Source: Patescibacteria group bacterium
Lineage (GTDB): Bacteria; Patescibacteriota; Patescibacteriia; UBA1558; GWA2-36-10
Reading direction: 5' to 3'
Length of the DNA stretch: 64,000 nt
Assembly (NCBI GenBank): GCA_041650755.1
Contig: JBAZKN010000003.1
Location: 18,060 to 82,059, forward strand
Part shown: piece by piece, positions 2,372 through 18,866 of the stretch
Layout of the letters: every line of letters begins with the position of its first letter
Numbering within the stretch: the stretch's first letter is position 1
Made by a program: the position numbers and the translations under genes
The notes under the pieces: generated by a model
What the model was told of the DNA's origin: nothing
Database searches by the model: none
What the model saw: only the letters and a program-made list of their open reading frames with translations

Positions 2372-3403
2372 ATGTTTGTGCCTAAATATCTTTATATTTT
2401 TTTAACCGAGAATTGCAACCTCAATTGTCGACATTGTTATGGTGATTTCTCAAAAAATAAAAAGGTCAAAAACTTAAATTTGCCAGAATGGCAAAAAATA
2501 TTTGAACAATGCGCAAGTCTGCGTATTTTTTATTATGTAATTTCTGGAGGCGAACCAACAACCCACCCGCAATTTAAAGAGCTGGTTGAATATCTATCTA
2601 AATCAAATCAATATTTTGCCTTAGTCACCAATGGTCACTTTAACAAAAATATTGAAGATTTGCTTATAAAAAATAAAAAACATATTATTGAGCTAAAATT
2701 TTCTTTGGACGGATATGATTTTGATACTTATAATTATCTACGCCAAATAAATAATAGGCTACTATTTGATAATTTTATCGCCAGAATAAAAAGGTTTTCT
2801 CGGGCTGGCGTAAAAATTTCCCTAGGTATAAATATCCATAGCCGAAATATCAATCACATAAAAAAATTCAGCAAATTTATAAATAGCCTTGGACCTCAAC
2901 ACATAGAAATATCCACTATTGCCAATACTGGCAGGGCAAAATTATTGCCCATAAAAGACAAGAATATTTCCCTAAAACAAATAAAAAAATTACAGGAACA
3001 ATTCACTTTATATCTGGATAAAAAAATCACTACCAGTTTTGTTGATATGCCATTCAATCACAGCCGTTTTGGTTTTAGCTGCCCAGCCATCACTGATTTT
3101 ATGGCGATCAGCAGCCGGGGCATATTACTGCCTTGCCCCCTGTTTAATTCGCCTGACATAAAAAAATACTGCCATCATCTAAATGCTCACAATCTTGGCC
3201 TCAAGAAAGTTTTAAGTAGTCCGGTCTTAAAAAAATTATACTTGGCCAAATTAACACCCTGTCTATATAGAGAGCGCGGCTGCCACAATGCCAAAAATTG
3301 CCAACGCTGCCTGGCTCAAAGCTTGATGAAGGGAAACCCCCAAACGCCACCTGACTTTTGTTTGCAATATAAAAAAATTCTATTTCAAAAAAATGCTGTA
3401 TAA
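2372..3403 (+). CDS. radical SAM enzyme with C-terminal SPASM-like cysteine-rich domain
   Basis: CNLNCRHC (CxxxCxxC) at aa 15-22; GGEPT; C-terminal Cys cluster CPLF..CHH..CLYRERGCHNAKNCQRC. Confidence 0.8.
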   Translation: MFVPKYLYIFLTENCNLNCRHCYGDFSKNKKVKNLNLPEWQKIFEQCASLRIFYYVISGGEPTTHPQFKELVEYLSKSNQYFALVTNGHFNKNIEDLLIKNKKHIIELKFSLDGYDFDTYNYLRQINNRLLFDNFIARIKRFSRAGVKISLGINIHSRNINHIKKFSKFINSLGPQHIEISTIANTGRAKLLPIKDKNISLKQIKKLQEQFTLYLDKKITTSFVDMPFNHSRFGFSCPAITDFMAISSRGILLPCPLFNSPDIKKYCHHLNAHNLGLKKVLSSPVLKKLYLAKLTPCLYRERGCHNAKNCQRCLAQSLMKGNPQTPPDFCLQYKKILFQKNAV

Positions 3404-4388: not shown

Positions 4389-5315
4389 TTGCAACAGATC
4401 ACAATGGCTAATTGGAAAAATATTCTCGAGGAACTAAATGCGAATGGAAGTAATTTTGATATTATTAGAAGATCTTATTTAAAAAAACTAAGCAAGTTAA
4501 CGGGTAGGAATGTAATCGCTTATTATAGTGGCTGGCTGCAGAAAAACGCACCGGATTTGCGTTTTTCTCTCTCTATTAATGACAATGATAAAAATGGTTT
4601 TATGAATGCGCTCGCTGGAGTGAATTGTAGCAAGGGCCTAGATTTAGTTCTTCATACTCCGGGTGGCGATGTTGCGGCTACTGAATCAATTATTGATTAC
4701 TTGAAAAGCAAATTTGAAGATATTAGAGTTATTGTGCCTCAACTTGCTATGTCTGGGGGCACTATGATAGCGTGCTGTGCCTCTAGGATTATTATGGGTA
4801 AACATTCAAGCCTTGGTCCAATCGATCCTCAAATTGGTGGCTTACCAGCCCATGGCGTTGTAGAGGAATTCCTGCGTGCCTATGAAGAGATAAAAGCCGA
4901 CCCTGTTAAGCAGGCAGTCTGGGCTCCAATTATACAAAAATATCACCCTACTTTTATTGGAGAGTGTGAGAAAGCAATTGAATGGTCACAAAAAATAGCG
5001 GAAAATTGTTTGCGAGACAGAATGTTTAAGGGTCAAGCTGATGCTAATGAAAAGGTAAAAAAGATAATTGATGAACTCACTGATCACTCAATTAGTTTAT
5101 CTCATTCTAGACATCTCTCGTTTAAGAAATGTAGTGAGCTGGGATTTATGGTTGATGATTTGGAGAGTGATAGTAAGTTGCAAGATGCTGTGCTTAGTGT
5201 GCATCATTCTTTTATTCATACATTAACATCGACCCCAGCGATAAAAATTATTGAAAATCATAATGGTGTAGCTTTCATACAAAGCGTGCCCCAATACTTA
5301 ATGAATAGAAACTAA
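4389..5315 (+). CDS. ClpP/crotonase-fold serine peptidase, S49/SDH-family-like
   Basis: 308 aa; LHTPGGDVAATESII and AMSGGTMIACCA segments resemble SppA/SDH Clp-fold peptidases; family assignment from memory. Confidence 0.5.
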   Translation: MQQITMANWKNILEELNANGSNFDIIRRSYLKKLSKLTGRNVIAYYSGWLQKNAPDLRFSLSINDNDKNGFMNALAGVNCSKGLDLVLHTPGGDVAATESIIDYLKSKFEDIRVIVPQLAMSGGTMIACCASRIIMGKHSSLGPIDPQIGGLPAHGVVEEFLRAYEEIKADPVKQAVWAPIIQKYHPTFIGECEKAIEWSQKIAENCLRDRMFKGQADANEKVKKIIDELTDHSISLSHSRHLSFKKCSELGFMVDDLESDSKLQDAVLSVHHSFIHTLTSTPAIKIIENHNGVAFIQSVPQYLMNRN

Positions 5316-6631
5316 ATCTGTAAAGTAATTTTTCGATTAATATAAACCAGCTTACTTTTCAGTAGCGACAACAACTCTCGTTTTTCCGAAATATTTCCAT
5401 TTTGCAGCAGATATTTGGCGTAGGTTCTTACGTCAATTTTTTTACCTTTAATTTTTTCAGGATTACCGCCGAGCACAGATGTTTGTAGATTGTTTAATCT
5501 TCTTACTTCATCCTCAAATTTCCCTTGAACTCCAAGTTGATCAATTTCAACCTTGTCAATTATTTTTGCCAATTCGTTTATGAGTGCTTCTTCCCTGATA
5601 TAAGTGTTTTTACATTCGGGGTTTTTGGCTCTGGTGCAACCGTAGTAAATATATTTGGCGGTCGTTCCGTCAGTCAATTTTTTGAATTTTTCTTGTCCGG
5701 TGATACTGGATCCGCACAGGCCACAAACCATGAGTTTGGTAAAGGCAAATTCTTTGTTTTTGGCGCCGCATGTAGCCTCGATTGTTTTGATGTTGGCTTG
5801 TGCCTGATCAAAAAGTTTTTGAGTGATAATCGGTTTGTGCTTTCCTTGATACCACTTGCCACTGTTTTTCGGGTACTCAAACATACCGTAGTAGAACGGG
5901 TTTCTCAGCAGATTATATATTCCGCTCAGAGCCAGGGTTTTTTGACCTCTGGTTTTAAAATTAAGATCAAACTTCAGCCAGTTGTATATCTTTCTACCGC
6001 TCCAACGCTCATTGGCGACTTTTTCGAATACTTGTTTGATTATTGGTGCGCGCAGGGGATCAACGATGATCTGGCACTTCTTATCCATTCGGTTTTGGTT
6101 CAGATAGCCCAAAGGCGCCATGCCTGGCCACAAACCCATTTCTACCCTCGTTCTCATGCCTCTTTTGACGTTTTCTCCGCGATGATCGTTTTCCAGTTTG
6201 GCGGTACTTCCCAAAATCATCAGCATGAATTTTTCATTTGGGTTATTGGTGAATGTTTGTCCGTGGGTTCTTATTTCCGCCAACAATCCTTGATCCATAA
6301 GATCGACGATGGCGCCTAAGTCACCGGCGTTACGACTTAAACGATCCGGCGCCCAAGTGATGATGCCGTTGAATCTGCCGGTTCTAATGTCACCCAAAAG
6401 CTCATTAAAGATTTCCCGCTGTCCCGTGTCCTTGGCCGAGTGACTTTCCCGTTTGATTTCAACAATATCCAAATTTTCCCGAACGGCAATATCCAACATT
6501 TCCTTAACTTGGGAATCGATGGACAGCACCTGGCGCTCCTCGGATTCCGTTGATTTTCTCGCGTAAAGGCAGTATTTGATTTTTTGTTCCGTTGTGGTTG
6601 CGTTTTCCATACAACAACATTGATGACGCAA
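5312..6631 (-). CDS. large serine recombinase (resolvase catalytic domain + recombinase domain + zinc ribbon)
   Basis: N-terminal YARKSTESEERQ..SIDSQ catalytic-serine context, DRLSRN, C-terminal CGLCGS..YYGC zinc ribbon; likely start MENATT at 6610; convergent with the protease gene. Confidence 0.85.
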   Translation of the reverse strand: MRHQCCCMENATTTEQKIKYCLYARKSTESEERQVLSIDSQVKEMLDIAVRENLDIVEIKRESHSAKDTGQREIFNELLGDIRTGRFNGIITWAPDRLSRNAGDLGAIVDLMDQGLLAEIRTHGQTFTNNPNEKFMLMILGSTAKLENDHRGENVKRGMRTRVEMGLWPGMAPLGYLNQNRMDKKCQIIVDPLRAPIIKQVFEKVANERWSGRKIYNWLKFDLNFKTRGQKTLALSGIYNLLRNPFYYGMFEYPKNSGKWYQGKHKPIITQKLFDQAQANIKTIEATCGAKNKEFAFTKLMVCGLCGSSITGQEKFKKLTDGTTAKYIYYGCTRAKNPECKNTYIREEALINELAKIIDKVEIDQLGVQGKFEDEVRRLNNLQTSVLGGNPEKIKGKKIDVRTYAKYLLQNGNISEKRELLSLLKSKLVYINRKITLQI

Positions 6632-6782: not shown

Positions 6783-7718
6783 ATGCAAATGCAAATGATA
6801 TTTATGACTCAAAAAAAGGTTAAAAAAACCGGAAAAAAAGACACCCTTACATTCATTGATCTGTTTGCCGGAATAGGAGGTTTTCACGTTGCCTTTCACA
6901 ATGCCGGAGCGGATTGTGTTTTTGTTTCGGAGTGGGATGAGTTCGCTCAAAAAACATACAGACACAATTTTTACAAAGTGTCTCCGGAGGTTTTCGATCT
7001 CGGCAATTTTGTCGGAGACATCACCAAGGTTGATCCGAAAAAAATTCCCGATTTTGACGTTTTGACCGCCGGGTTTCCTTGTCAGCCTTTTTCTCAGGCG
7101 GGATTTAAAAAAGGATTCAATGAAACTCGCGGCACTTTATTTTTCGATATCGCCAAAATAATAAAAGAAAAGAAACCAAAAGCTTTTTTTCTAGAAAACG
7201 TCAGAGGCCTGTACAATCACGACGGAGGCAAAACTTTCAAAACGATCAAGAGAATAATCACCGAAGACTTGGGTTATTCGTTTTTTTCACAAATCGTCAA
7301 AGCGTCCGATTTCGGTTTGCCGCAACACCGCCCACGTCTTTTCATGGTCGGATTTAAAAACAAGAAGATTGACTTTAAATTTCCCGAGCCCGCCAAAAGT
7401 CTGAAATACACCATGTCGGATATTTTCAAGGGCAAGTGCAACAAAGAAATCGGCTACACCTTGCGTGTGGGTGGTCGCGGAAGTAAAATTGACGATCGCA
7501 GAAATTGGGACGCATATATTGTCGATGGAAAGGTCGTTCAGCTCGGTCCGAACGAGGGATTGAAAATGCAGGGCTTTCCCGGTTGGTTCAAATTTCCTTC
7601 GGGGCTTTCTCCCGTGCAATCCATGAAGCAACTCGGTAATTCCGTTGCGGTACCCGCCATTGAGGCCGTTGCGGGAGAAATCGTCAAAACATTGAAAAAA
7701 TATGGGAACAAAAAATAA
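6783..7718 (+). CDS. DNA (cytosine-5)-methyltransferase
   Basis: Motif I FIDLFAGIGGF, motif IV GFPCQPFSQAG, motif VI ENVRGL, motif X QLGNSVAVP; likely start at M8 (6804). Confidence 0.9.
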   Translation: MQMQMIFMTQKKVKKTGKKDTLTFIDLFAGIGGFHVAFHNAGADCVFVSEWDEFAQKTYRHNFYKVSPEVFDLGNFVGDITKVDPKKIPDFDVLTAGFPCQPFSQAGFKKGFNETRGTLFFDIAKIIKEKKPKAFFLENVRGLYNHDGGKTFKTIKRIITEDLGYSFFSQIVKASDFGLPQHRPRLFMVGFKNKKIDFKFPEPAKSLKYTMSDIFKGKCNKEIGYTLRVGGRGSKIDDRRNWDAYIVDGKVVQLGPNEGLKMQGFPGWFKFPSGLSPVQSMKQLGNSVAVPAIEAVAGEIVKTLKKYGNKK

Positions 7719-8790
7719 CAAAGGCGAATGGTCGGAGTTATACGCATTTTTGAAAATTCTTGAAGAAAGAAAACTCTTCGCCGCGGACAAAAATTTGGAA
7801 ATAATCGAAGGAAAGTTTTTTGTGTTTCACAAAATCATCAGGGAAGAGAAAGATGAACCCGTGAAGATTTATGACATTTCCGAATCGCCGACGCAAATTT
7901 TGATCACAGACGAAAACGGAAAATTGTTGAAAGAATTAGATTCCGCCGGACTGAAAGAAAAAACTTTGAAGATTTTTAAAAAAATAAAGAGCGAGAAAAG
8001 CAGTTCTTTCGGGATTCCCGAAGCGAGCAAATTGATGAAGGAACTTCTGTGCACCAAGGTGAAAGCGGGCAGCGGCAAAAAAGCCGACCTGGTGGCCGTC
8101 ATTTACGACAGAATTTCAAATACCATGCCGATGTTGGGGTTTTCCGTCAAATCGATGGTGGGAGGAGCGTCGACTTTATTGAATCCGGGCAAGACAACAA
8201 ACTTCATTTACGAAATCAAAGGGTTCAAGGGCAATGTCGATGAAGTTAATCACATTGACACCAAATCTCAAATTCGGGATCGCGTGAGAAAAATCGTCGA
8301 GCAAGGCGGGTTGTTCGAGTATGTCGGCGTTTCAAATGAACAGTTTGAATTCAACATGAAAATGATCGATACGGCTTTGCCCGAGTTTGTCGCGCAAATG
8401 CTTTTCAATTTTTTCTCAAATTCCAACAGAACGATGTCGGATTTGACGGAAGAACTTTCCGGGGATGAGAACATAACCAAAAAATTCGGTTTGTCGCTGA
8501 CCAATTACGAATACAAAGTGAAAAATTTTCTGGATGCGGTGGCTTTGGGTATGGTTCCAAGCAAACCTTGGGACGGATTTTCAAAAGCCCACGGCGGCTA
8601 TATCGTCGTAAAACAAAACGGTGAAGTCGTTTGCTACCATCTTTACAACCGAGACGAGTTTCGGTCGTATCTGTACGAGAACACCAAGTTTGACGCCGCC
8701 AGTACGACTCGTTACGATTACGGCAAATTGTATGAAAGAGACGGGAGATTGTTTTTCAATCTTAACTTGCAAATCAGATTTGTGAAATAA
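7702..8790 (+). CDS. type II restriction endonuclease, HpaII-family-like
   Basis: 362 aa; overlaps the MTase stop by 17 nt and is followed by vsr, the same M-R-vsr order as the Haemophilus HpaII locus; N-terminal KGEWSELYAF; family membership recalled, not verified. Confidence 0.5.
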   Translation: MGTKNNKGEWSELYAFLKILEERKLFAADKNLEIIEGKFFVFHKIIREEKDEPVKIYDISESPTQILITDENGKLLKELDSAGLKEKTLKIFKKIKSEKSSSFGIPEASKLMKELLCTKVKAGSGKKADLVAVIYDRISNTMPMLGFSVKSMVGGASTLLNPGKTTNFIYEIKGFKGNVDEVNHIDTKSQIRDRVRKIVEQGGLFEYVGVSNEQFEFNMKMIDTALPEFVAQMLFNFFSNSNRTMSDLTEELSGDENITKKFGLSLTNYEYKVKNFLDAVALGMVPSKPWDGFSKAHGGYIVVKQNGEVVCYHLYNRDEFRSYLYENTKFDAASTTRYDYGKLYERDGRLFFNLNLQIRFVK

Positions 8791-8800
8791 CGGAATCATC

Positions 8801-9220
8801 ATGGCGGACATTTTCACAAGAAAAAAAAGAAGCGAAATAATGTCCAAAATAAAAGGCAAGGACAGCAAGATCGAAGTTGCCTTCAGAAAAAAGCTTTGGT
8901 CAAAAGGATTTCGTTACAGCAAAAATTCAAAAAATTATTTCGGAAAACCCGATCTGGCTTTGCCGAAGTACGAAACGGTCATTTTCGTCGATTCTTGTTT
9001 TTGGCACGGGTGTAAAAAACACGGCTCGATTCCGTCGACAAGAAAGAAGTTTTGGACGGAAAAAATAAATCGAAACAAAGCCAGAGACGGGGAAGTCGAC
9101 AGACATTATAAAAAGAAGGGATGGATCGTCATTCGGACATGGGAACACGAGATGCGTAAAAACCCCGACGAATTAATTGATAGGATTGTTTTGATTTTAA
9201 AAAATGTCTCCAGAGTTTAA
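8801..9220 (+). CDS. vsr: very short patch repair endonuclease
   Basis: 139 aa; FVDSCFWHGC motif; starts 10 nt after the REase stop. Confidence 0.85.
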   Translation: MADIFTRKKRSEIMSKIKGKDSKIEVAFRKKLWSKGFRYSKNSKNYFGKPDLALPKYETVIFVDSCFWHGCKKHGSIPSTRKKFWTEKINRNKARDGEVDRHYKKKGWIVIRTWEHEMRKNPDELIDRIVLILKNVSRV

Positions 9221-9377
9221 AACAGGTGGAATATTTTGAATAATTTAAACTAGAAGTATGAATAAAGAAACACCGGTTGAAAGTTTAGAGGTATGGCTAT
9301 CAAACAAACCATTTTGGGAAAAGTTTGTCTAGAAAATTAATCTTGAAAAGGAATTATTAACGGACGAAGATATTGAT

Positions 9378-11933
9378 TTGTGTTACAAATATTTATCCGA
9401 ACACTTGAGTTTGACAGATTCAATTTCCGACACTAAACCGGAGATATCTTTTAAGAATGAAATATTCACTGACACCGCAAACGCAGAATACGGACCTGTT
9501 TCGTGTGCTCAAAAAAAGAAAATCATTGAAGTTAAAGATTTTTCTGATGTTAACGCTATCTCTGGTACTTGCTCTATAAAATTTGGATCAAACTTAACTT
9601 TGATTTATGGCGGAAACGGTAGTGGTAAAAGCGGAGTTAGCAGACTTTTATGTAATGCTTGTTTTTCAAGGGGAGAGCGTGAGATTTTGCCAAATGTTAA
9701 AGTTGCTTCAATACCCGGACCGCAAGCAAAGGCCACTTTTGTTATTGATGACGGTTCCGGAAGCACACAAGATGTCGAGTATTCTCTTGGTGATAATATT
9801 GACGATCTTAAATGTTTCTCAGTCTTTGATTCAGAAAGTGTTTTGATACATCTTGATCAATCAAATAATGTTAACTTTACACCGGCACAGATAAAAATAT
9901 TTGATAAGGTTGCCGATACCATATCAAAACTTGAAGAGAAACTTCAGAATGAAAAAAATGAAAAGAAAAAGGATAATCCTTTCGCCTCAATGTTTTTATC
10001 TGATGATGCCACATCAGATACAGCGTTGTTTTGTAAAAACATAAGTGCGTCTACGGAAGTGGATGATTTTCTTAAACATGCAAATTTTAATGCAACAACA
10101 GACGAACCAAAAATATCGGATTTAAGCAAGCAGATTGATGAAAAGAAAAAGCTTGATATAACAAAAAAGAAAGCTCAGCTGGCATCGGATAGACAAAATT
10201 TAACAGCATTAAAATCTACACTGCAATCAACGGTTGATCGTTTCACTGAAGTTAAGAGAGATGCCATAAACAAAATAATTTCTGACATCACCGAAAAAAA
10301 GAAAATCGTTGAAAGTCTGAGCGTCCAAAGCTTCAACGATGGAATTATAAAAACTGTTGGTAGTCCTGAATGGAAAGCCCTTATAACAACAGCCAAGACT
10401 CTCTATGATAATGAAAAAGCAGCTAACGAGAATAACGATCTTGATAACTGCATCCTTTGTCATCAGAAATTATCATCTGATGCAAAAACTCTTTTTCAAA
10501 AATATTGGAAATTTCTCGAAAGCAAGGCAGAGTCGGAGCTTGCTTTGTTGGTGTCTCAACAAAGGTCTGCTTTAGAAGATCTTAAATCGGCAAAAACTTT
10601 GTATCCAAAATTTTTGGCAACGGATGCCGGTGTAAAAACACTGAATGAAGAAAATTCCACCTATCTGTCTGAGTTAAAAACACAATTTTCGGCCGTGTCT
10701 GATGTTCTTGATGATTGGATTGATAAACTTGGAAAATATGAGTCTGTCAGTACGGACGGCGTACCGACGATAAATTTAGAAAAAATTACCGAAATAGTAA
10801 ATGCAAAGACTACGGAAGAATCTAAACTTGTTGATCCGTCTGTTGAAATTGCCACACTTACCGCAAGGTTAAATTCTCTAAAACATAAAAAAGACGCTAC
10901 CGCCGTCAAAGATGCAGCTCTTGAGTATTTGTCTTTCTTGAAATGGTCATCAAAAACAAGCGGTGTCAGTTTCTCCGGTATTAAAATGGCTACTACCAAA
11001 AAACGAACTGAATCATTTTTGGTTCGTGTCGGAAATAGTTATAAAGGAGTATTTAATCAAGAATTAGCCAGTCTCGGTTGCGATTTTAATTTAGTAATGA
11101 ATACGAGCGGAGAGCAAGGAAATACCGTCAAAGAATATCGTTTAGATTTTGCAGAGGACTATAATCCCAGCCAGATATTGAGTGAGGGCGAACAAAACGC
11201 TTGTTCATTAGCCGACTTCCTCACTGAAGTTCAATTGGATAACAAAAATTGCGGTATTATTTTTGACGATCCTGTGACATCGCTTGATCATGAACGAAAA
11301 GATAAAATTGCCGAAAGACTGACGAAGGAGGCTAATCAGAGACAAGTATTAATTCTTACCCATGACATGGTGTTTATGAGCCAGCTCGTTAAATATGCAA
11401 ATAAATTTATTATTCCTTTCGTAGCTCACTGGATGAAAAAAGTTGATGGTATCCCTGGTTGCGTTGAAGACAATGCCAGTCCGAAGCTTGCAACATTAGC
11501 GAATTTAAAAGCCAAAGCACAAGAAGCGATCAAAGATATTAATACTCTCGATTCCACAACACAAGAGATCCATCTTGGATCAGCTTTTGATTATTTGCGT
11601 AGTGCTTGCGAGGCTTTAATCGAGGAAGTTTTGTTTGCCGGGACGATTCAAAGATATGATGATCATATCAAAGTGCAGAATTTAGAAGAAGTTGTCTTTG
11701 ATAAAGATTTGGCATTAAAAATTACCGACTTGCATGGAAGAATCTCAGGATTTTTATTAGCCCATAACCGTAGCGATTTACAGCGAGAAAATCCTCCTCA
11801 ATTGAGTGACTTTGAATCATTTCAGAAAGAATTCAATGAGCTTGAGACCAGCCTTCGATGCTCCTTAAAGACCGCTCGAAGCGAACGAAATCAAAGAAAA
11901 GAGGAAAAGGCTGCAGCTCAAGCTGGTTGGTAA
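9378..11933 (+). CDS. RloC/PrrC-like ABC-type ATPase with zinc-hook coiled coil; putative anticodon nuclease / defence ATPase
   Basis: Walker A GGNGSGKSG; ABC signature LSEGEQ; Walker B/D-loop IIFDDPVTSLD; H-loop LTHD; about 400 aa K/E-rich coiled-coil insertion with CILCH (CxxC) at its centre; C-terminal ~230-aa non-ATPase domain containing LRSACE (R-x3-E) and downstream His. Confidence 0.5.
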   Translation: MCYKYLSEHLSLTDSISDTKPEISFKNEIFTDTANAEYGPVSCAQKKKIIEVKDFSDVNAISGTCSIKFGSNLTLIYGGNGSGKSGVSRLLCNACFSRGEREILPNVKVASIPGPQAKATFVIDDGSGSTQDVEYSLGDNIDDLKCFSVFDSESVLIHLDQSNNVNFTPAQIKIFDKVADTISKLEEKLQNEKNEKKKDNPFASMFLSDDATSDTALFCKNISASTEVDDFLKHANFNATTDEPKISDLSKQIDEKKKLDITKKKAQLASDRQNLTALKSTLQSTVDRFTEVKRDAINKIISDITEKKKIVESLSVQSFNDGIIKTVGSPEWKALITTAKTLYDNEKAANENNDLDNCILCHQKLSSDAKTLFQKYWKFLESKAESELALLVSQQRSALEDLKSAKTLYPKFLATDAGVKTLNEENSTYLSELKTQFSAVSDVLDDWIDKLGKYESVSTDGVPTINLEKITEIVNAKTTEESKLVDPSVEIATLTARLNSLKHKKDATAVKDAALEYLSFLKWSSKTSGVSFSGIKMATTKKRTESFLVRVGNSYKGVFNQELASLGCDFNLVMNTSGEQGNTVKEYRLDFAEDYNPSQILSEGEQNACSLADFLTEVQLDNKNCGIIFDDPVTSLDHERKDKIAERLTKEANQRQVLILTHDMVFMSQLVKYANKFIIPFVAHWMKKVDGIPGCVEDNASPKLATLANLKAKAQEAIKDINTLDSTTQEIHLGSAFDYLRSACEALIEEVLFAGTIQRYDDHIKVQNLEEVVFDKDLALKITDLHGRISGFLLAHNRSDLQRENPPQLSDFESFQKEFNELETSLRCSLKTARSERNQRKEEKAAAQAGW

Positions 11934-12073
11934 TAGGAATTTATGTTAAGTGGTCGTACTTAAATTGAAATATTTAATTTTAAAATAAATTGTTGTAATT
12001 ATCCGTAGTTATTAAGATTATTACCTGTAGATAACTCAGCCTTCGCAAAAACCCTAACCTAAGCTAATATACG

Positions 12074-12094
12074 ATGGACATTTGTCCATTTTTT
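12074..12094 (+). terminator. rho-independent terminator after the RloC-like gene
   Basis: ATGGACA-TT-TGTCCAT perfect 7-bp hairpin followed by TTTTTT. Confidence 0.6.
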
Positions 12095-12294
12095 GGTTAA
12101 AATGTAATTGACAATTAAGTGACCTAAACCCGTCGTTTTCGGCGGGCATGGTCTCAAATCGTAACTCACATACAACCCGTCATTCAGGGCGTGAGTTACG
12201 TTATGCAGGGAAACTTGCATAGGGGCTTTAAAACCCTCCTGGTGGCGGGCTTTATGTTTGGCCCGCGTTTCCGGGAAAAGCGAAAGGAAACGTC

Positions 12295-13356
12295 ATGTCT
12301 TTAATCATCTCTCAGGGCGGAAGAAACGCCCGAAAAATCGACAAGACCGGTTTTGACAAGGAAGACTATCTGCAACAATACATTCGGGAAAATCCCGAAG
12401 CCATTCCGGTCTATGAAATCGCCCAAGACAAAAGGTTGTTTGTCGCCGCCCGTGAATTTCCGACCGAATCCGGTCCGATTGACGCGCTGGCCGTGGACAA
12501 AGACGGCGACATCTATGTCGTTGAAACCAAACTGTACAAAAACCCCGACAAAAGAACCGTTGTCGCCCAAGCGCTGGACTACGGCGCTTCGCTCTGGAAA
12601 CATTCCGGCGACTTTTCCGAATTTTTGAGCCTGCTTGACTCTGAAATTCAAGACAAATTCAATCTCACTTTTCCCGAAAAGGCAAAAGATTTTTTTGGTT
12701 TGACCGACGAGCAGTCAAGCGCCCAACTTGACGCCATGCAAAGAAATCTGCGCGAAGGCAATTTGAAGTTTGTCATTTTGATGGACTCAATGGAAGAAAG
12801 ACTCAAAGACCTCATAATCTATGTCAACCAAAACAGTCAGTTTGATATTTACGCCGTGGAATTGGAATACTACAAATTCAACGACTACGAAATCATGATT
12901 CCCAAGATTTTCGGGGTGGAAGTCAAAAAGAACGTCGGCACAACCGCAAACGCCAAAAGATTCAAATGGGACGAAGCCAAGTTTTTCAACTACGCCAAAC
13001 AAAACCTGTCCCAAGACATCTGTGATCAAGTGTTCAAGCTTTTCGCTTTCAGTAAAGACAAAGCTTCATCAATCAATTACGGCACCGGCAGTTATCCAGC
13101 ATTTTCACCCGTCTTTTCAAAGATAAGCGACAAATCGCTTTTCACTTTGACTTTGGACGGCGTTATCAGATTAAGCTTTAACTTTGAGTGGGCTTTTCGC
13201 GACAACGAAGCGTTGGCCAAAAAGTTCAACACCAGACTCAAAGAAATCGGAGTTATTATGCCCAAAGATTTTTTGCAGCTTCGTCCCAGCGTTGAATTCA
13301 AACAGTGGGGAAACAAGACGCAAGATATCATTAAAATAATAAAAGAATTAACATAA
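12295..13356 (+). CDS. PD-(D/E)xK nuclease-fold protein (NucS/DUF4263-like core), function unknown
   Basis: [21 protein letters not shown] = D..D/E-x-K restriction-endonuclease-like motif at aa 60-82; about 270-aa C-terminal extension without motifs; GC-richer than flanks. Confidence 0.45.
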
Positions 13357-13367
13357 CAAAAAACCAT

Positions 13368-13685
13368 ATGAAGAAATGTCCGTTTTGCGCCGAAGAAATC
13401 CAAGACGAAGCCGTCAAATGCAAACATTGCGGCAGCGATTTGGTCAAGCAGGAAAAGAGTGCGCCGCTTCAGGCCCAATCGATTTCCAATCCCAAGAGCG
13501 GGAAAAACAAGATGGTCGGCGGTTGCGCTTTGATCATCCTCGGCTTCATTATTGTTTTCTCAAGCGCTGCTTCCGGCGCTCAAGAAGGTTTAGGTTGGTT
13601 GGTGGTGCCGGCCGGCATGGCCATTTTGGCCGGATTGATAATTCTTTTGCTCGGCAAATTCGAAAATTGGTATCATTGGAAATAA
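13368..13685 (+). CDS. zinc-ribbon membrane protein
   Basis: N-terminal CPFC..(11)..CKHC zinc ribbon followed by two TM helices; 105 aa; starts 12 nt after upstream stop. Confidence 0.45.
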
Positions 13686-13724
13686 CGAGGTAAAAGATTG
13701 AACAACCGATTGTCTTTGACTTTT

Positions 13725-14309
13725 TCAAGTCGCGGTTTCATGCCCGTCCAGTTTTCGGTCGGGTTTTGAATTTTCTTCATTTTTGTCATCATTCGACTTT
13801 TTTGTATTGTCATCGGGATTTTTGTTTTTCAAAGTTTTTTCGATCTTTACCTGCTTGTTCAAGTTCGGATCACGCCAAGCGATCATCATGTCTTTTATTT
13901 TTTCTAAGCGCTCATTGGTCAGCAGACCCGCTTGATCATTTACCTGAATCGCATGGTTGTGATTGTGGGTGACTTTTTCCACGAATTCTTTGCTTCTGGT
14001 TTTCAGCCAAAACAAGACATAAGTGGGAACGCCGTCTTTGATTCCCTGAATGACTCTGCTTTGCGCCATGTCCGATATCAGCAAGGTGCCTTCTTTGCAA
14101 GCGTCTCTGACTTCGGCGGCGAATTTCCGGTCTTCTTGTGTCCAGCGATAAAAAGTGGAGGGATTGATACCAGATCTTAAGCAAGCCGTTGCGATAATCG
14201 GATTTTTTCGCAGTTCTTCAAGCAAGTCTTTTTTTATTCGACTTTTTCTTTTTTTGACGGTGATGGCCCGAGTTTTTGTCGGGTCCTTTTTTGGTTTGTT
14301 TATTGTCAT
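13725..14309 (-). CDS. HTH DNA-binding protein, phage terminase small-subunit-like
   Basis: N-terminal HTH IIATACLRSGINPSTFYRWTQEDRKFAAEV resembling terS-type HTH; K/D/E-rich tail; 4-nt overlap with upstream ParB-MTase gene. Confidence 0.35.
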   Translation of the reverse strand: MTINKPKKDPTKTRAITVKKRKSRIKKDLLEELRKNPIIATACLRSGINPSTFYRWTQEDRKFAAEVRDACKEGTLLISDMAQSRVIQGIKDGVPTYVLFWLKTRSKEFVEKVTHNHNHAIQVNDQAGLLTNERLEKIKDMMIAWRDPNLNKQVKIEKTLKNKNPDDNTKKSNDDKNEENSKPDRKLDGHETAT

Positions 14310-15703
14310 ATTTTTTTAGTTAACATCGGTTGGTTTATTTTTTTCGGTTTTTGTCCGGTTGTTTTTTCCCATCTTCGCAAAATCACCTGGGCATACACCG
14401 GTGACTTTTCCATCAAAAAGCAACGGCGCTTCATGGCGGTGGCGGCTATGAGCGTTGAACCCGAACCCCCGAACGGTTCGATTATGATGTCGTCTCGTTT
14501 GGTCAGCACTTTGACATAGGGGATGAGTATTTCAACGGGTTTGGTGCCAAAGATTATACCTTGCCCCGATGACTTTTGATCATCGGCTTTGTAACTGATG
14601 AAATCTGTCGGACAGATTTTTTTACCTTTTTCATAGCCTTCCCAGTGCGGTTTGCCGGAGATGGCAAACAAAGCGTTTTCGTATTCTTGTTGAAGCAAAG
14701 AATCGGCTTCTTGATCAACATTCAGTTCAATATCACCTTCGGTTCCCACCAAAGCGATATCGTGCTTGTTGAAGAATCGATGCTTGGCGGAAAATCCCTG
14801 GGTGCGGTTGGGCAAATGCCAAACAATGGTGTTTCGGTATTTCCAGTGTTTCTCCAGCTCGTTCCATATTATTTTTAGATTCTTGGGATTTTCAAAAACA
14901 ATGATGGAAAAGTCCGGTTTTTGAATTTTGGCGATATTAGTCATCCAAAGTTCGGTGAAGTTGTCGGGCAAAATATCGGTTTCCAAATATCGGCGGTTTT
15001 TCTTCACGCCAAAGCCGGTGGTGACCCCGTCCTTTTGTTTGGTTTTGCCTTTGAGATAATCAAGCAGGTAAGGAGGATCGGTAAGACACATGTCGGCTTT
15101 TTCATTGCCCATGAGTTTCAGGACATCGGCTTCAACGGTGCTGTCGCCACACATCAGTCTTGAACCGTTCAGTTCGTAGATGTCGCCTTTTTGCACGGAA
15201 ATGTTTTTGATGTCCAGTTTTGCCAATTCCTTGTTTAAATCAAACATTTCCGGTTCGCTTTCGAGTCCGAAAATTTCGTCCAGTTCTTCCGAGGAAAAAC
15301 CAACGTCTGAAAGCAGCGATTCGTCAAACTCGGCAAGCAGGGAATAATCGAATTCGCCGACATTTTTATTCAACCTGATATTGAGCTCTTTTTCTTTCTT
15401 TTCGTCGGGAATGTTCACATATACCACCGGGACTTCTTTGTAGCCCAAAGCTTTGGTGGCTTTCAGGCGCATGTGACCTCCAATCAGAATATTTTTGCGG
15501 TTTTCGGCCCCGTTGGCAATCAGCGGATCGCACAAGCCGAAGCGTCGTATCGATTCGGTCAGTTGTTCCATGGCTTCTTTATTATGTTTGCGGGGATTAT
15601 ACTCCGCCGGTTTCAACGTTGAGATCGGTAAATGAATGATTTTAAGATTGTTTGTTTCAGTCATAATTTTTTGATTAATTTTTAGCGATAAATAAAACGA
15701 CAC
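14306..15703 (-). CDS. ParB-like nuclease domain fused to beta-class DNA amino-methyltransferase (N6-adenine or N4-cytosine)
   Basis: N-terminal ParB/Srx motifs (LKPAEYNPRKH, IGGHMRLKA); motif IV CLTDPPY precedes motif I FGGSGST (beta-class order). Confidence 0.8.
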   Translation of the reverse strand: MSFYLSLKINQKIMTETNNLKIIHLPISTLKPAEYNPRKHNKEAMEQLTESIRRFGLCDPLIANGAENRKNILIGGHMRLKATKALGYKEVPVVYVNIPDEKKEKELNIRLNKNVGEFDYSLLAEFDESLLSDVGFSSEELDEIFGLESEPEMFDLNKELAKLDIKNISVQKGDIYELNGSRLMCGDSTVEADVLKLMGNEKADMCLTDPPYLLDYLKGKTKQKDGVTTGFGVKKNRRYLETDILPDNFTELWMTNIAKIQKPDFSIIVFENPKNLKIIWNELEKHWKYRNTIVWHLPNRTQGFSAKHRFFNKHDIALVGTEGDIELNVDQEADSLLQQEYENALFAISGKPHWEGYEKGKKICPTDFISYKADDQKSSGQGIIFGTKPVEILIPYVKVLTKRDDIIIEPFGGSGSTLIAATAMKRRCFLMEKSPVYAQVILRRWEKTTGQKPKKINQPMLTKKI

Positions 15704-17615: not shown

Positions 17616-18866
17616 TTACCCTCCAAATTTCCAGGTGACACCGGCCGAGATGACATGAACGTCGACTTCGTATTTTCCCGGTGCCAGGAAGCCGAAGTGT
17701 TTTTCAACTTCTCTTTTACCCCAGCCGTAGGTATAGCCGAGATCGAAATCCAAGTTGTCGTTCGGTCTGTATCCAAGGCCGAAAGAAATTCCCGGGCCGT
17801 CCACTTCCGGTGCGGTCGGCGTGGTGGTTTCCCGCGGAATGGCCGCGGTATGCCAGCAGACGCCGCTTCTCAAAAGCCACTTTTCGGTCAGCTCGTACTC
17901 GGCGCCGAGATGGAAGCTGAAGTTGTCATGCCAATTCAGCTTTTGGCCGTATTCAAGCAGCTCGCCGATTTTGGCCGTCATCTGTTTGGCCGCCGAATAG
18001 TCGTACCAGTTGGCGTCAGCCAGAATTCTCAACCTGTTATTCGGTTCAAACTTCAAGCCGAGTCCGAGTCTTCCCGGAAAGTAGACCGAAGCGGTCATGC
18101 CGTATTTTCCAAGAGGCAAGCCCAGCAGCTCCGGCTTGGTTGATCCTTTCAGGCGGACCTCCATGGGCAGACTGTAGGACGCGCCGACAGTCCATTGGTC
18201 GTTGAGCCGGTAGAGAATTCCGATTCCGCCACCCAGTCCGATGCCGTCAGCTTCAGCTTCCATACTTGCCATGTCCAGTCGAAAGTTTCCAAGTTGGAGA
18301 CTGCCGGCATTGATAAACTGGGCGTAGCCGATATTCAGGCTCAGTCCGACGGAGAGTTCATTATTGACCCGGTAGGCCATTGCCGGAACCAGCGAAGTCA
18401 GACTCAGCATTCCTTCTTTCCAGGGAAAGTCGCCGTCATACTTGCTGCCAAGACCGCCAACAACGTGCCAGCCCGCTCCAATCGTCAACCGGTCGTTCAG
18501 GCGTGTGGAAAATCCGCCGAAAGGCAGAGGGATGATTCCTCCCTCCGAATTTTTGGATAATTCTCGGCCGCATTCCGACCACTGATATGTCCCTTCGGCG
18601 ATAATTGATTCCATTCCGAGTTGTAGTGAAGTACGCTTGATGTTGCTTAACCCCGCAGGGTTGTAGTAGAACGCCGAAGCGTCTACCGGATCGGCGATTT
18701 GAGCACCGCACATTCCCATGGCTCTGGGACCGACACTGCCGCTGACGCGGTTGACTCCTCCGGCTATTGCCGAATTGACGGTCAACAAGACCAGCATAAA
18801 TACCGCAATCGTTATCTTTTTCATCGTTTGTCCTCCCTTGGTAAAGGGTTTCGGTTTAAGGTTCAT
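17616..18866 (-). CDS. FadL/TodX-family outer-membrane transporter for hydrophobic compounds
   Basis: Signal peptide MKKITIAVFMLVLLTVNSAIA (probable start 18824 preceded by AGGGAGG RBS); glycine/aromatic-rich beta-strand pattern and C-terminal WKFGG barrel terminus typical of the FadL/Toluene_X family; GC-rich. Confidence 0.7.
   Translation of the reverse strand: MNLKPKPFTKGGQTMKKITIAVFMLVLLTVNSAIAGGVNRVSGSVGPRAMGMCGAQIADPVDASAFYYNPAGLSNIKRTSLQLGMESIIAEGTYQWSECGRELSKNSEGGIIPLPFGGFSTRLNDRLTIGAGWHVVGGLGSKYDGDFPWKEGMLSLTSLVPAMAYRVNNELSVGLSLNIGYAQFINAGSLQLGNFRLDMASMEAEADGIGLGGGIGILYRLNDQWTVGASYSLPMEVRLKGSTKPELLGLPLGKYGMTASVYFPGRLGLGLKFEPNNRLRILADANWYDYSAAKQMTAKIGELLEYGQKLNWHDNFSFHLGAEYELTEKWLLRSGVCWHTAAIPRETTTPTAPEVDGPGISFGLGYRPNDNLDFDLGYTYGWGKREVEKHFGFLAPGKYEVDVHVISAGVTWKFGG

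What the first reader, a model, noticed from the sequence alone, without database searches (positions are those of the whole stretch)
9378..11933. 851-aa ABC ATPase with Rad50-like zinc hook (CxxC) in a coiled coil: RloC-type anticodon-nuclease candidate beside an R-M system
The sequence shows a split ABC ATPase: Walker A GGNGSGKSG, signature LSEGEQ, Walker B/D-loop IIFDDPVTSLD and H-loop LTHD. The two halves are separated by a roughly 400-aa K/E-rich coiled coil carrying CILCH at its midpoint. That arrangement is a defining feature of RloC (a Rad50-like zinc hook inside the ATPase head). A roughly 230-aa C-terminal domain contains an R-x3-E pair (LRSACE) plus downstream His, reminiscent of the PrrC/RloC Arg-Glu-His tRNase triad, although the spacing differs from PrrC. 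The position immediately after an R-M/vsr module matches the restriction-linked ORF context. If it is a tRNase it would be a suicidal backup defence. The divergent C-terminus could alternatively be a different effector.
Basis: partly seen in the sequence, partly recalled or inferred. Interest (0 to 1): 0.65.

Follow-up and report, generated by a model that had tools for sequence, protein, structure and literature searches.

The report
Broken RloC-like defence gene beside R-M
This is a copy of a widespread but untested "long-form RloC-like" phage-defence gene (a Rad50-like ATPase with a zinc hook and a probable RNase tail) sitting behind a restriction-modification system, and in this genome it is cut short by a premature stop codon near its start.

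Summary
The ORF and all the quoted motifs are real. The 851-aa reading is an artefact, though. The gene starts at ATG 9258, and an in-frame TAG at 9330-9332 replaces a family-invariant Trp codon. Intact relatives are 883-893 aa. The same TAG is present in a second, independent metagenome assembly.

The protein belongs to PADLOC candidate family PDC-S06 (E=2e-121) and passes Pfam AAA_13. It aligns (E=2e-31) with Swit_4992, a protein listed as an RloC orthologue in the founding 2008 paper. PDC-S06 equals RloC in the broad sense and has two subgroups. This gene is in the long form, which has an extra N-terminal domain and a C-domain that Pfam and the PrrC model do not recognise.

The CxxC is invariant and sits at the midpoint of the helical insert, and Rad50 is the best fold match. 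The C-domain is helical and has R741, E745, R759 and H796 invariant in 168 diverse relatives. Similarity to HEPN RNases and to the canonical RloC nuclease is only suggestive.

In close relatives, 7 of 10 copies abut R-M systems of types I, II or III. In the wider family about 17-34% do.

Verdict: a new, apparently disabled member of a known candidate family. tRNase activity is plausible but unproven.

The parts
9258..9329 (+). First 24 codons of the ancestral gene (MNKETPVESLEVWLSNKPFWEKFV), now cut off from the rest by the stop codon.
   Evidence: In frame with the ORF. Matches the conserved N-terminus of 883-893-aa relatives. DNA homology to L001 starts at 9264.
9330..9332 (+). Premature amber codon (TAG) in place of a family-invariant Trp codon (TGG in the closest relative).
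   Evidence: The TAG is also present in assemblies ERZ27247363 and JGI 3300044603. TAG is used as a normal stop in the window.
9333..11933 (+). Remainder of the gene.
   Evidence: dN/dS is 0.08 against the L001 copy, so the gene was under purifying selection until recently.
9258..9524 (+). Long-form-specific N-terminal module. In the model of the intact relative it is a three-helix domain (residues 12-51) followed by a disordered linker. The stop codon falls inside its second helix.
   Evidence: Model of P0002. Conserved W15, P20, W22, E23, W27, D40, C44, Y45. Canonical RloC (APEC O1) has its Walker A at about residue 30 and lacks this module.
9609..9635 (+). Walker A / P-loop, GGNGSGKSG (Lys84 of the ORF).
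   Evidence: G125, K126 and S127 are invariant in P0002 numbering.
9975..11063 (+). Helical (coiled-coil-like) insert that splits the ABC head. It corresponds to P0002 residues about 215-607.
   Evidence: Secondary structure of model ma8ef51096789. Rad50 and SMC are the best fold matches.
10449..10460 (+). CILC: the CxxC zinc-hook candidate, in the loop between the ascending and descending helices.
   Evidence: C400 and C403 are invariant in 64 sequences. The loop spans 392-408, between H372-391 and H409-423, and the insert midpoint is about residue 411. It aligns with CVLC of Swit_4992.
11178..11195 (+). ABC signature motif, LSEGEQ.
11256..11288 (+). Walker B / D-loop, IIFDDPVTSLD. The 'DDP' form is shared with canonical RloC (IVIDDPISSLS).
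11355..11366 (+). H-loop, LTHD.
11409..11930 (+). C-terminal domain (ORF residues 678-851): a beta-hairpin, a helical bundle and a long terminal helix. It is the presumed effector. R741 (11598-11600), E745 (11610-11612), R759 (11652-11654) and H796 (11763-11765) are invariant. The motif AHNRSD lies at 11760-11777.
   Evidence: Model mbe0399df95db, pLDDT 84. Invariance in 168 diverse relatives. 1975 cluster representatives carry the domain, nearly all at the end of 850-900-aa proteins. HEPN proteins are enriched among weak fold matches.
6783..9220 (+). Adjacent type II R-M module: C5 cytosine methyltransferase (6783-7718), HpaII-family endonuclease (7702-8790) and Vsr mismatch endonuclease (8801-9220). 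It ends 37 nt before the ATG at 9258.
   Evidence: Pfam E=2e-80, 1e-108 and 1e-28 respectively.
5312..6631 (-). Large serine recombinase, the probable mobiliser of the island. Homologous recombinases lie near the gene in four related loci.

Best explanation
The locus 9258-11933 is a nonsense-disrupted copy of a 'long-form RloC-like' single-gene defence protein. This is the long subgroup of PADLOC candidate PDC-S06, and it was already counted among RloC orthologues in 2008.

Intact relatives are about 890 aa and have four parts:
- a family-specific N-terminal three-helix module;
- a Rad50-like ABC ATPase head, split by a helical insert of roughly 390 aa;
- an invariant CxxC zinc hook at the turn of that insert;
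- a helical C-terminal domain with an invariant Arg-x3-Glu, Arg and His set.

The most likely mechanism is inferred by analogy with Geobacillus RloC. The ATPase head with its zinc hook acts as an internal switch that responds to DNA, or to the state of DNA restriction. It then licenses the C-terminal domain, probably a metal-independent HEPN-like RNase that cuts tRNA anticodon loops, to shut down translation in an infected cell.

The gene travels as a discrete module and tends to land next to R-M operons of any type, as a second line of defence. In this genome the amber codon at codon 25 means that the full-length protein is not made. The copy is most likely inactive, or at best gives an N-terminally truncated restart product.

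Shown here: gene structure, the stop codon, family membership, conserved residues, fold class, and genomic context. Inferred: RNase activity, tRNA as the target, the DNA-dependent switch, and loss of function.
For: Gene structure and the stop codon:
- In-frame ATG at 9258 plus TAG at 9330 in place of an invariant Trp.
- Homology to L001 covers exactly 9264-11935.
- The TAG is reproduced in an independent assembly.
- The genetic code is standard.
- dN/dS is 0.08.

Family:
- PDC-S06 E=2e-121 over the full length, and AAA_13 at 54 bits.
- BLASTP E=2e-31 to Swit_4992. Swit_4992 is entry #30 (881 aa, next to a carbamoyltransferase) in the RloC table of PMC2610378.
- Swit_4992 and the window protein hit the same PDC-S06 models. 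A canonical RloC (APEC O1, entry #51) hits the other PDC-S06 models.
- PA14 has two PDC-S06 hits and two listed RloC orthologues.

Rad50-like head and hook:
- Foldseek's best hits are Rad50, with E=1.8e-10.
- The CxxC is invariant and lies mid-insert.

C-domain:
- R741, E745 and H796 are conserved in 168 of 168 sequences, and R759 in 167 of 168.
- The spacing fits R-x3-E-x36-52-H.
- HEPN toxins dominate the weak Foldseek list.
- hhalign against the canonical RloC C-domain gives P=4.6e-4, centred on RYIxxHxHSD versus RYINRxSHSD.

Context:
- R-M abuts 7 of 10 close relatives, and the R-M types are I, II and III-like.
- There is no conserved partner among 139 immediate neighbours. R-M parts are the commonest neighbour families.

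Mechanistic precedent:
- GkaRloC's nuclease is switched on by its DNA-dependent ATPase and de-repressed by zinc-hook mutations (PMC3458546).
Against: - No member of the long form has been tested. I found no experimental paper on PDC-S06.
- No sequence model recognises the C-domain. Pfam finds nothing on the domain alone, AAA_13 ends at position 580 of 713, and the PrrC HMM gives no hit. Canonical RloC hits both models.
- The hhalign similarity is weak (33% probability). It was matched by 1 of 30 block-shuffled controls, so it rests mostly on one short motif.
- There is no Rx4-6H HEPN motif.
- The position aligned with the canonical catalytic His is Arg in this subfamily.
- Davidov and Kaufmann flagged several entries of 833-895 aa as having a 'poor' or 'suboptimal' triad.
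- Loss of function from the amber codon is inferred, not measured. The allele persists in two samples, so a restart product could be in use.
Confidence: 0.62

Rival explanations
1. The gene is still functional here. Translation restarts at TTG 9378 (or at 9411) and produces an N-terminally truncated protein that keeps the ATPase, the hook and the C-domain. The truncated form could be an altered or constitutively licensed variant.
For: Apart from the single stop, the reading frame is intact for 2.6 kb and dN/dS is 0.08. The allele is present in two assemblies. In-frame TTG codons follow the stop. A database relative of 853 aa (P0063) starts at the equivalent point, MTDEDIDLCY.
Against: The lost segment is among the most conserved parts of the family: W15, P20, W22, E23 and W27 are at least 90% conserved. 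No convincing ribosome-binding site precedes the TTG. The promoter scan is not above chance. A low dN/dS reflects past selection, not current selection. The two assemblies are one near-identical lineage.
Confidence: 0.2
2. The protein is not an RNase. It is an SMC/Rad50-like DNA sensor or clamp. In this view the helical C-domain is a regulatory or partner-binding module, and any killing or restriction is done by neighbouring nucleases, such as the R-M enzymes.
For: The best fold matches are DNA-handling Rad50, SMC, JetC and RecN. The gene is frequently adjacent to nucleases and R-M systems. The C-domain has no significant match to any nuclease. The founding paper itself noted a 'poor ACNase triad' for some large RloC list entries of 833-895 aa.
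Against: There is no conserved partner gene among 139 immediate neighbours. Near-identical copies sit behind three unrelated R-M types, which argues against a specific protein partner. Four invariant charged or His residues in an otherwise variable helical domain look like an active site. The His-loop motif resembles the canonical RloC one.
Confidence: 0.15
3. It is a housekeeping Rad50/SbcC-type repair ATPase or an ABC-transporter ATPase. Some database records name relatives 'EcfA2'.
For: JGI names several relatives 'energy-coupling factor transporter ATP-binding protein EcfA2'. There are weak Rad50 sequence hits.
Against: NCBIfam transporter models match only about 70 residues around Walker B and fall far below their cut-offs. 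There is no adjacent Mre11/SbcD or permease gene. The gene lies on a mobile island with a recombinase and R-M and is patchily distributed across phyla.
Confidence: 0.02

Closest known systems
RloC sensu lato, long form (e.g. Swit_4992 / YP_001260375 of Sphingomonas wittichii RW1 pSWIT02; PADLOC PDC-S06 models PDLC04891/93/88/92)
   Same: The architecture is the same from end to end: N-terminal module, split ABC head, CxxC (CILC versus CVLC), 'DDP' Walker B, and a C-domain with LR-x3-E, an invariant Arg, and a His loop. BLASTP gives E=2e-31. Both proteins hit the same PADLOC models.
   Different: Identity is only 24-29%. The window copy carries a premature stop. In the His loop the window has AHNRSD where Swit_4992 has THSHD.
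Canonical RloC (Geobacillus kaustophilus RloC, Campylobacter rloC, E. coli APEC O1 WP_000423308; COG4694 'wobble nucleotide-excising tRNase'; Pfam AAA_13 full length)
   Same: Both have an ABC head with a 'DDP' Walker B, split by a helical insert that carries CxxC. Both have a C-terminal domain with R-x3-E followed by a His about 40-50 residues later. Both are single-gene systems found in defence and mobile contexts. PADLOC groups both under PDC-S06.
   Different: The canonical form lacks the roughly 90-aa N-terminal module. Its C-domain is matched by AAA_13 (to position 713 of 713) and by the PrrC HMM, and ours is matched by neither. Pairwise BLAST finds only the Walker B region. The canonical His motif is SHSD with spacing x39, while ours is H-N-R-S-D with spacing x50 and Arg at the canonical His position. 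Only the canonical form has demonstrated tRNase activity (PMC2610378).
PrrC anticodon nuclease (E. coli prr locus)
   Same: The design is an ABC ATPase plus a C-terminal effector acting as an R-M-linked back-up. Some relatives (P0115, L019) sit inside type I hsd operons between hsdS and hsdR, which is the prrC position.
   Different: PrrC is about 400 aa and has no coiled-coil or zinc hook. The PADLOC PrrC model does not match our protein. Here the neighbour is a type II system, and across relatives the R-M type varies. That makes PrrC-style silencing by one cognate R-M enzyme unlikely.
Rad50 / SbcC
   Same: Rad50 is the best structural match for the whole model (7zr1, E=1.8e-10). It shares the split head, the antiparallel helical insert and the apical CxxC.
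   Different: There is no Mre11/SbcD partner next door. The insert is much shorter. Our protein has an extra C-terminal effector domain and an extra N-terminal module.

Membership tests
RloC as defined operationally by Davidov and Kaufmann 2008 (PMC2610378) | ABC ATPase motifs: Walker A, signature, Walker B/D-loop and switch His. | tested here: met
   All motifs are present. AAA_13 scores 54 bits against a cut-off of 36.
RloC as defined operationally by Davidov and Kaufmann 2008 (PMC2610378) | CXXC within a largely alpha-helical insert that splits the ATPase domain. | tested here: met
   CILC lies at ORF residues 358-361. Both Cys are invariant in 64 sequences. The motif sits in the loop at the midpoint of the helical insert in the model.
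RloC as defined operationally by Davidov and Kaufmann 2008 (PMC2610378) | C-proximal Arg-X3-Glu-X36-52-His. | tested here: met
   The pattern is R741-x3-E745-x50-H796, and all three residues are invariant in 168 relatives. Ser does not precede the His here, although the paper says it often does.
RloC as defined operationally by Davidov and Kaufmann 2008 (PMC2610378) | Sequence homology to a listed orthologue. | tested here: met
   BLASTP to Swit_4992 (entry #30) gives E=2e-31 over 526 residues, plus a head segment at E=1e-11.
RloC as defined operationally by Davidov and Kaufmann 2008 (PMC2610378) | Wobble-nucleotide-excising tRNase activity regulated by the zinc hook and a DNA-dependent ATPase. 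| not testable with these tools
   This needs expression and tRNA cleavage assays. I found no data for any long-form member.
Canonical RloC / Pfam AAA_13 full length (COG4694) | Match to the whole AAA_13 profile, including its C-terminal part (positions about 580-713). | tested here: not met
   The window protein and relatives stop at profile position 580-582. The C-domain alone gives no Pfam hit at E<=10. The APEC O1 RloC matches positions 11-713 at 374 bits.
Canonical RloC / Pfam AAA_13 full length (COG4694) | Nuclease domain homologous to the canonical one (MRNILE ... RYINRxSHSD). | tested here: inconclusive
   hhalign gives P=4.6e-4 and 33% probability. One of 30 block-shuffles does as well. 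Arg occupies the canonical His position in the window.
PrrC | Match to a PrrC profile, including the C-terminal anticodon-nuclease domain. | tested here: not met
   The PADLOC PrrC model PDLC02360 gives no hit at E<=1. The same model hits canonical RloC at E=1e-12 over residues 490-730.
PrrC | About 400 aa with no coiled-coil insert, embedded in a type Ic hsd locus. | tested here: not met
   Intact relatives are about 890 aa and have a 390-aa insert. The neighbour here is a type II HpaII-like system.
PADLOC PDC-S06 (candidate single-gene defence system) | Full-length match to a PDC-S06 HMM. | tested here: met
   PDLC04891 gives E=2e-121, aligning residues 37-826 to profile positions 65-853 of 858.
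HEPN RNase superfamily | Rx4-6H catalytic motif. | tested here: not met
   No conserved Arg lies 4-6 residues before the invariant His. The loop reads G/A-H-x-H/R-S-D.
HEPN RNase superfamily | Four-helix HEPN fold. | tested here: inconclusive
Rad50/SbcC | Head, antiparallel coiled coil and zinc hook, working with an adjacent Mre11/SbcD nuclease. | tested here: not met
   The fold resemblance is strong. However, no phosphoesterase partner is present in the window, and only 3 of 139 neighbours in relatives are metallophosphoesterases.

The most novel reading that the evidence does not exclude
Long-form RloC-like proteins could be a mechanistically distinct branch. In this reading their family-specific N-terminal three-helix module couples them to whatever R-M system they land beside, or senses its failure. 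Their C-domain, with its own invariant R/E/R/H tetrad, would be a new nuclease type whose target need not be the tRNA anticodon. The amber codon here removes exactly that N-terminal module, so it could mark selection to disarm, or to rewire, a toxic effector while keeping the R-M system.
Probability: 0.15. Interest if true: 0.6.

Novelty: new member of a known kind. Interest (0 to 1): 0.35.

Why it matters
PDC-S06 / long-form RloC-like genes are abundant. At least 1975 clusters at 50% identity carry the C-domain, and at least 528 relatives occur in species-representative genomes across many phyla. No member of the long form has been tested.

Three results make the family easier to test:
- PDC-S06 is the 2008 'RloC' set, and it splits into two subgroups with different end domains.
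- Four invariant residues are now defined and can be mutated.
- Near-identical copies sit behind type I, II and III R-M operons.

For this genome, the practical message is that the gene should be annotated as disrupted, not as an 851-aa (or 840-aa) ATPase.

Tried and rejected
1. TAG recoding or suppression: rejected. TAG ends 14 long ORFs in the window, and none of the four tRNAs is a suppressor.
2. Random sequencing error at the TAG: rejected. The same codon is in a JGI assembly from another sample.
3. Fetching Geobacillus RloC by searching with the machine-read Fig. S1 sequence from the 2008 supplement: no hit at all. That text is not usable as sequence, so I do not rely on it. This cost one of the three large searches.
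4. The afdb50 fold library was unavailable, so no direct fold comparison with PrrC or RloC models was possible. The PDB holds no PrrC or RloC structure.
5. A Ralstonia megaplasmid hit (H39) turned out to be a copy truncated by an IS21 element and was useless for the C-domain.
6. MADS system (mad3 hit, E=7e-17): rejected. The match covers only the ABC head, and no mad operon is present.
7. NCBIfam and PHROGs hold no informative model. A canonical RloC is not named by either library.
8. Promoter and terminator scan: the counts are not above the shuffled expectation, so nothing was concluded from it.
9. GC profile: patchy, with no clean island border.
Full report
OBSERVATION

The ORF 9378..11933 (+) exists and translates to 851 aa.
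- Walker A GGNGSGKSG, residues 78-86
- CILC, residues 358-361
- LSEGEQ, residues 601-606
- IIFDDPVTSLD, residues 627-637
- LTHD, residues 660-663
- LRSACE, residues 740-745

Pfam AAA_13 passes its gathering score (54 bits against 36). The match covers residues 72-673 and only profile positions 17-580 of 713. PADLOC gives a full-length match to candidate system PDC-S06 (PDLC04891, E=2e-121). NCBIfam gives only sub-threshold ABC-transporter fragments.

THE GENE IS LONGER THAN THE ORF, AND IT IS BROKEN

Full-length relatives are 883-893 aa. An ATG at 9258 is in frame with the ORF, and the only interruption is TAG at 9330-9332. The translated upstream stretch, MNKETPVESLEVWLSNKPFWEKFV*KINLEKELLTDEDIDLCYKYL, matches the conserved N-terminus of relatives from candidate-phyla bacteria to Bradyrhizobium. 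The stop replaces an invariant Trp, which is TGG in the closest relative.

DNA identity to that relative (L001) is 91.5% over window 9264-11935 and ends at the gene borders. dN/dS over the whole gene is 0.08, so the single nonsense change is recent relative to the divergence.

All three stop codons end long ORFs in the window, and none of its four tRNAs is a suppressor.

The same TAG is present in two other public assemblies. One is identical to the window. The other is from a different JGI sample and differs at one base in 5.8 kb. Gene callers there start the gene even later, giving 840 aa. The stop codon is therefore a real allele. The full-length protein cannot be made. Any product would be a restart form lacking about 40-50 N-terminal residues.

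ANATOMY

An AlphaFold model of the 94%-identical intact relative P0002 has mean pLDDT 79. It shows the following, in P0002 numbering:
- A three-helix N-terminal module (residues 12-51), followed by a disordered linker.
- An ABC head.
- A helical insert from about residue 215 to 607. Its two arms are joined by a loop (392-408) that carries the invariant C400 and C403. The insert midpoint is about residue 411.
- The second half of the head.
- A beta-hairpin and a helical C-terminal domain that ends in a 40-residue helix.

Foldseek of the whole model against the PDB puts Rad50 first (7zr1, E=1.8e-10). SMC heads, JetC, RecN, AriA and LmuB follow.

A separate model of the window's C-domain (ORF residues 678-851) has pLDDT 84.

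WHAT FAMILY IS IT?

I found no experimental study of PDC-S06. Three lines of evidence show that PDC-S06 is the 'RloC' set of Davidov and Kaufmann 2008 (PMC2610378). That set was defined by ABC motifs, CXXC and R-x3-E-x36-52-H, with sizes of 658-897 aa.

1. A plasmid tblastn found Swit_4992 on pSWIT02. It is 881 aa and lies next to a carbamoyltransferase, exactly as entry #30 of their Table S1.
   - The window protein aligns with it at E=2e-31 over residues 319-844, plus a head segment at E=1e-11.
   - The alignment covers CILC/CVLC, the signature motif, Walker B and, in the C-domain, LRSACE/LRDTYE, QR/RR and the His loop.
2. Swit_4992 hits the same PDC-S06 models as the window protein. The E. 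coli APEC O1 prophage protein (738 aa, between the P2 replication and portal genes, entry #51) hits the other PDC-S06 models at E=1e-254.
3. PADLOC reports two PDC-S06 genes in P. aeruginosa PA14, and Table S1 lists two RloC orthologues there.

There are two subgroups.

The canonical short form (APEC O1, Campylobacter) has these properties:
- JGI labels its relatives 'wobble nucleotide-excising tRNase'.
- It matches AAA_13 from end to end (positions 11-713, 374 bits).
- It is hit by PADLOC's PrrC model through its C-domain (E=1e-12).

The long form, to which the window gene belongs, differs as follows:
- It has an extra N-terminal module.
- AAA_13 stops at about position 580, or 644 in Swit_4992.
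- The PrrC model gives no hit.
- The C-domain alone gives no Pfam hit.
- Pairwise BLAST between the window protein and the APEC O1 protein finds only the Walker B region.

THE C-DOMAIN

A profile of the C-domain finds 1975 cluster representatives at E<=1e-3 among 1.84 billion proteins. The best 150 almost all carry it at the end of 850-900-aa proteins, so there is one uniform architecture.

In 168 diverse members, R741, E745 and H796 are present in 168 of 168, and R759 in 167 of 168 (ORF numbering; add 40 for the intact protein). The spacing E-x50-H lies inside the RloC definition.

The canonical C-domain reads ...MRNILE...(x39)...RYINRGSHSD. The long-form consensus reads ...LRxxxE...LF....QR...SRYIEGHxHSD. 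In this window's subfamily the His loop is ...AHNRSD. The position that lines up with the canonical catalytic His is His in 93 members and Arg in 61, and it is Arg in the window. The His two residues earlier is the invariant one.

Profile-profile comparison of the two C-domains gives P=4.6e-4 and 33% probability over 82 columns. One of 30 block-shuffled controls did as well, and reversed or unrelated helical segments scored P=0.025-0.43. The signal is therefore suggestive and rests largely on the His-loop motif.

The PrrC/RloC nuclease was assigned to HEPN by Anantharaman et al. 2013 as an atypical member. A metal-independent, HEPN-like RNase is therefore the best guess for this domain, but it is not demonstrated.

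CONTEXT

In the window, the gene follows a C5 methyltransferase, a HpaII-family endonuclease and Vsr by 37 nt. A large serine recombinase lies just upstream of these.

Other probable defence genes flank the locus: a viperin-like radical-SAM protein, a PDC-S11-like protein, and a ParB-methyltransferase fusion.

Close relatives (at least 45% identity) are arranged as follows:
- 6 nt after hsdR of a type I operon (P0002)
- after a type III-like module (P0006)
- after two N6/N4 methyltransferases (P0017)
- before hsdMSR (P0066)
- beside or inside type I operons (L019, L023)
- near a PLD-helicase/MmeI-type pair (P0107)
- with no R-M detected (P0029, L018)

With the window that makes 7 of 10 directly adjacent to an R-M system. 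P0115 (36% identity) sits between hsdS and hsdR, which is the prrC position.

I also examined 80 loci from species-representative genomes, mostly 25-38% identical. My seed-built HMMs find an R-M component within 5 kb in 20 of 59 informative loci, and adjacent in 10 of 59. This is a lower bound.

A Pfam scan of 139 immediate neighbours shows no conserved partner. The commonest families are R-M parts: ResIII 5, Methylase_S 5, SWI2_SNF2 4, HSDR_N 3, N6_N4_Mtase 3 and GmrSD_N 3.

Homology between the window and its closest relatives stops at the gene borders, and those copies sit behind different R-M types. The gene is thus an autonomous single-gene module that tends to accompany R-M systems of any type. 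That argues against PrrC-style silencing by one cognate enzyme. It favours an internal switch of the RloC kind, in which a DNA-dependent ATPase and the zinc hook control the nuclease (PMC3458546).

CONCLUSION

It needs three corrections:
1. The gene is disrupted at codon 25.
2. It belongs to the long-form subgroup, whose N- and C-terminal domains differ from those of the tested RloC proteins.
3. tRNase activity remains an inference.

This is a new, apparently disabled member of a known but experimentally untouched candidate family. Interest is moderate to low.

Noticed in passing
window 2372-3403 (+): A 343-aa radical-SAM protein matches PADLOC prokaryotic viperin (pVip) models (70 bits, E=4e-20). 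It may be another defence gene a few kb upstream.
   Followed up: partly
window 12295-13356 (+); L006 14559-15184: A 353-aa protein directly downstream has no Pfam domain but has a PADLOC PDC-S11 hit (58 bits). A stretch with 69% DNA identity lies in the Uhrbacteria island, which also carries the ABC gene and a related serine recombinase. The islands therefore share three genes.
   Followed up: partly
window 14306-15703 (-): A fusion of a ParB N-terminal domain with an N6/N4 DNA methyltransferase. This is an orphan methylase typical of mobile elements and phages.
   Followed up: no
window 4389-5315 (+) and 5312-6631 (-): An SDH/ClpP-like serine protease gene ends where a convergent large serine recombinase gene ends, with a 4-nt overlap. 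An S49/NfeD-type peptidase also occurs in the related Campbellbacteria island L007.
   Followed up: no
window 17616-18866 (-): A FadL/TodX-type outer-membrane transporter shows that the host is a diderm bacterium. The closest copies of the ABC gene (89-94% aa identity), by contrast, come from candidate-phyla-radiation metagenome bins. This suggests recent cross-phylum transfer.
   Followed up: no
L015 (pSWIT02) 8739-14414: Swit_4992 is followed by an HD phosphohydrolase, an 'Abi family protein', and a pair made of a metallophosphoesterase and a second 881-aa hypothetical protein, whose family I did not check. This is another defence cluster.
   Followed up: no
plasmid collection: 284 plasmids carry relatives, all below 60% identity and all annotated only as 'AAA family ATPase'. 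Many Klebsiella plasmids have short 'hypothetical protein' genes that match only residues 15-176 (the N-terminal module plus Walker A). These may be gene fragments.
   Followed up: no
PMC2610378 supplementary Fig. S1: The machine-read alignment text in the held supplement is corrupted. A 357-aa query assembled from it found no protein at all. Sequence motifs should not be quoted from that text.
   Followed up: yes
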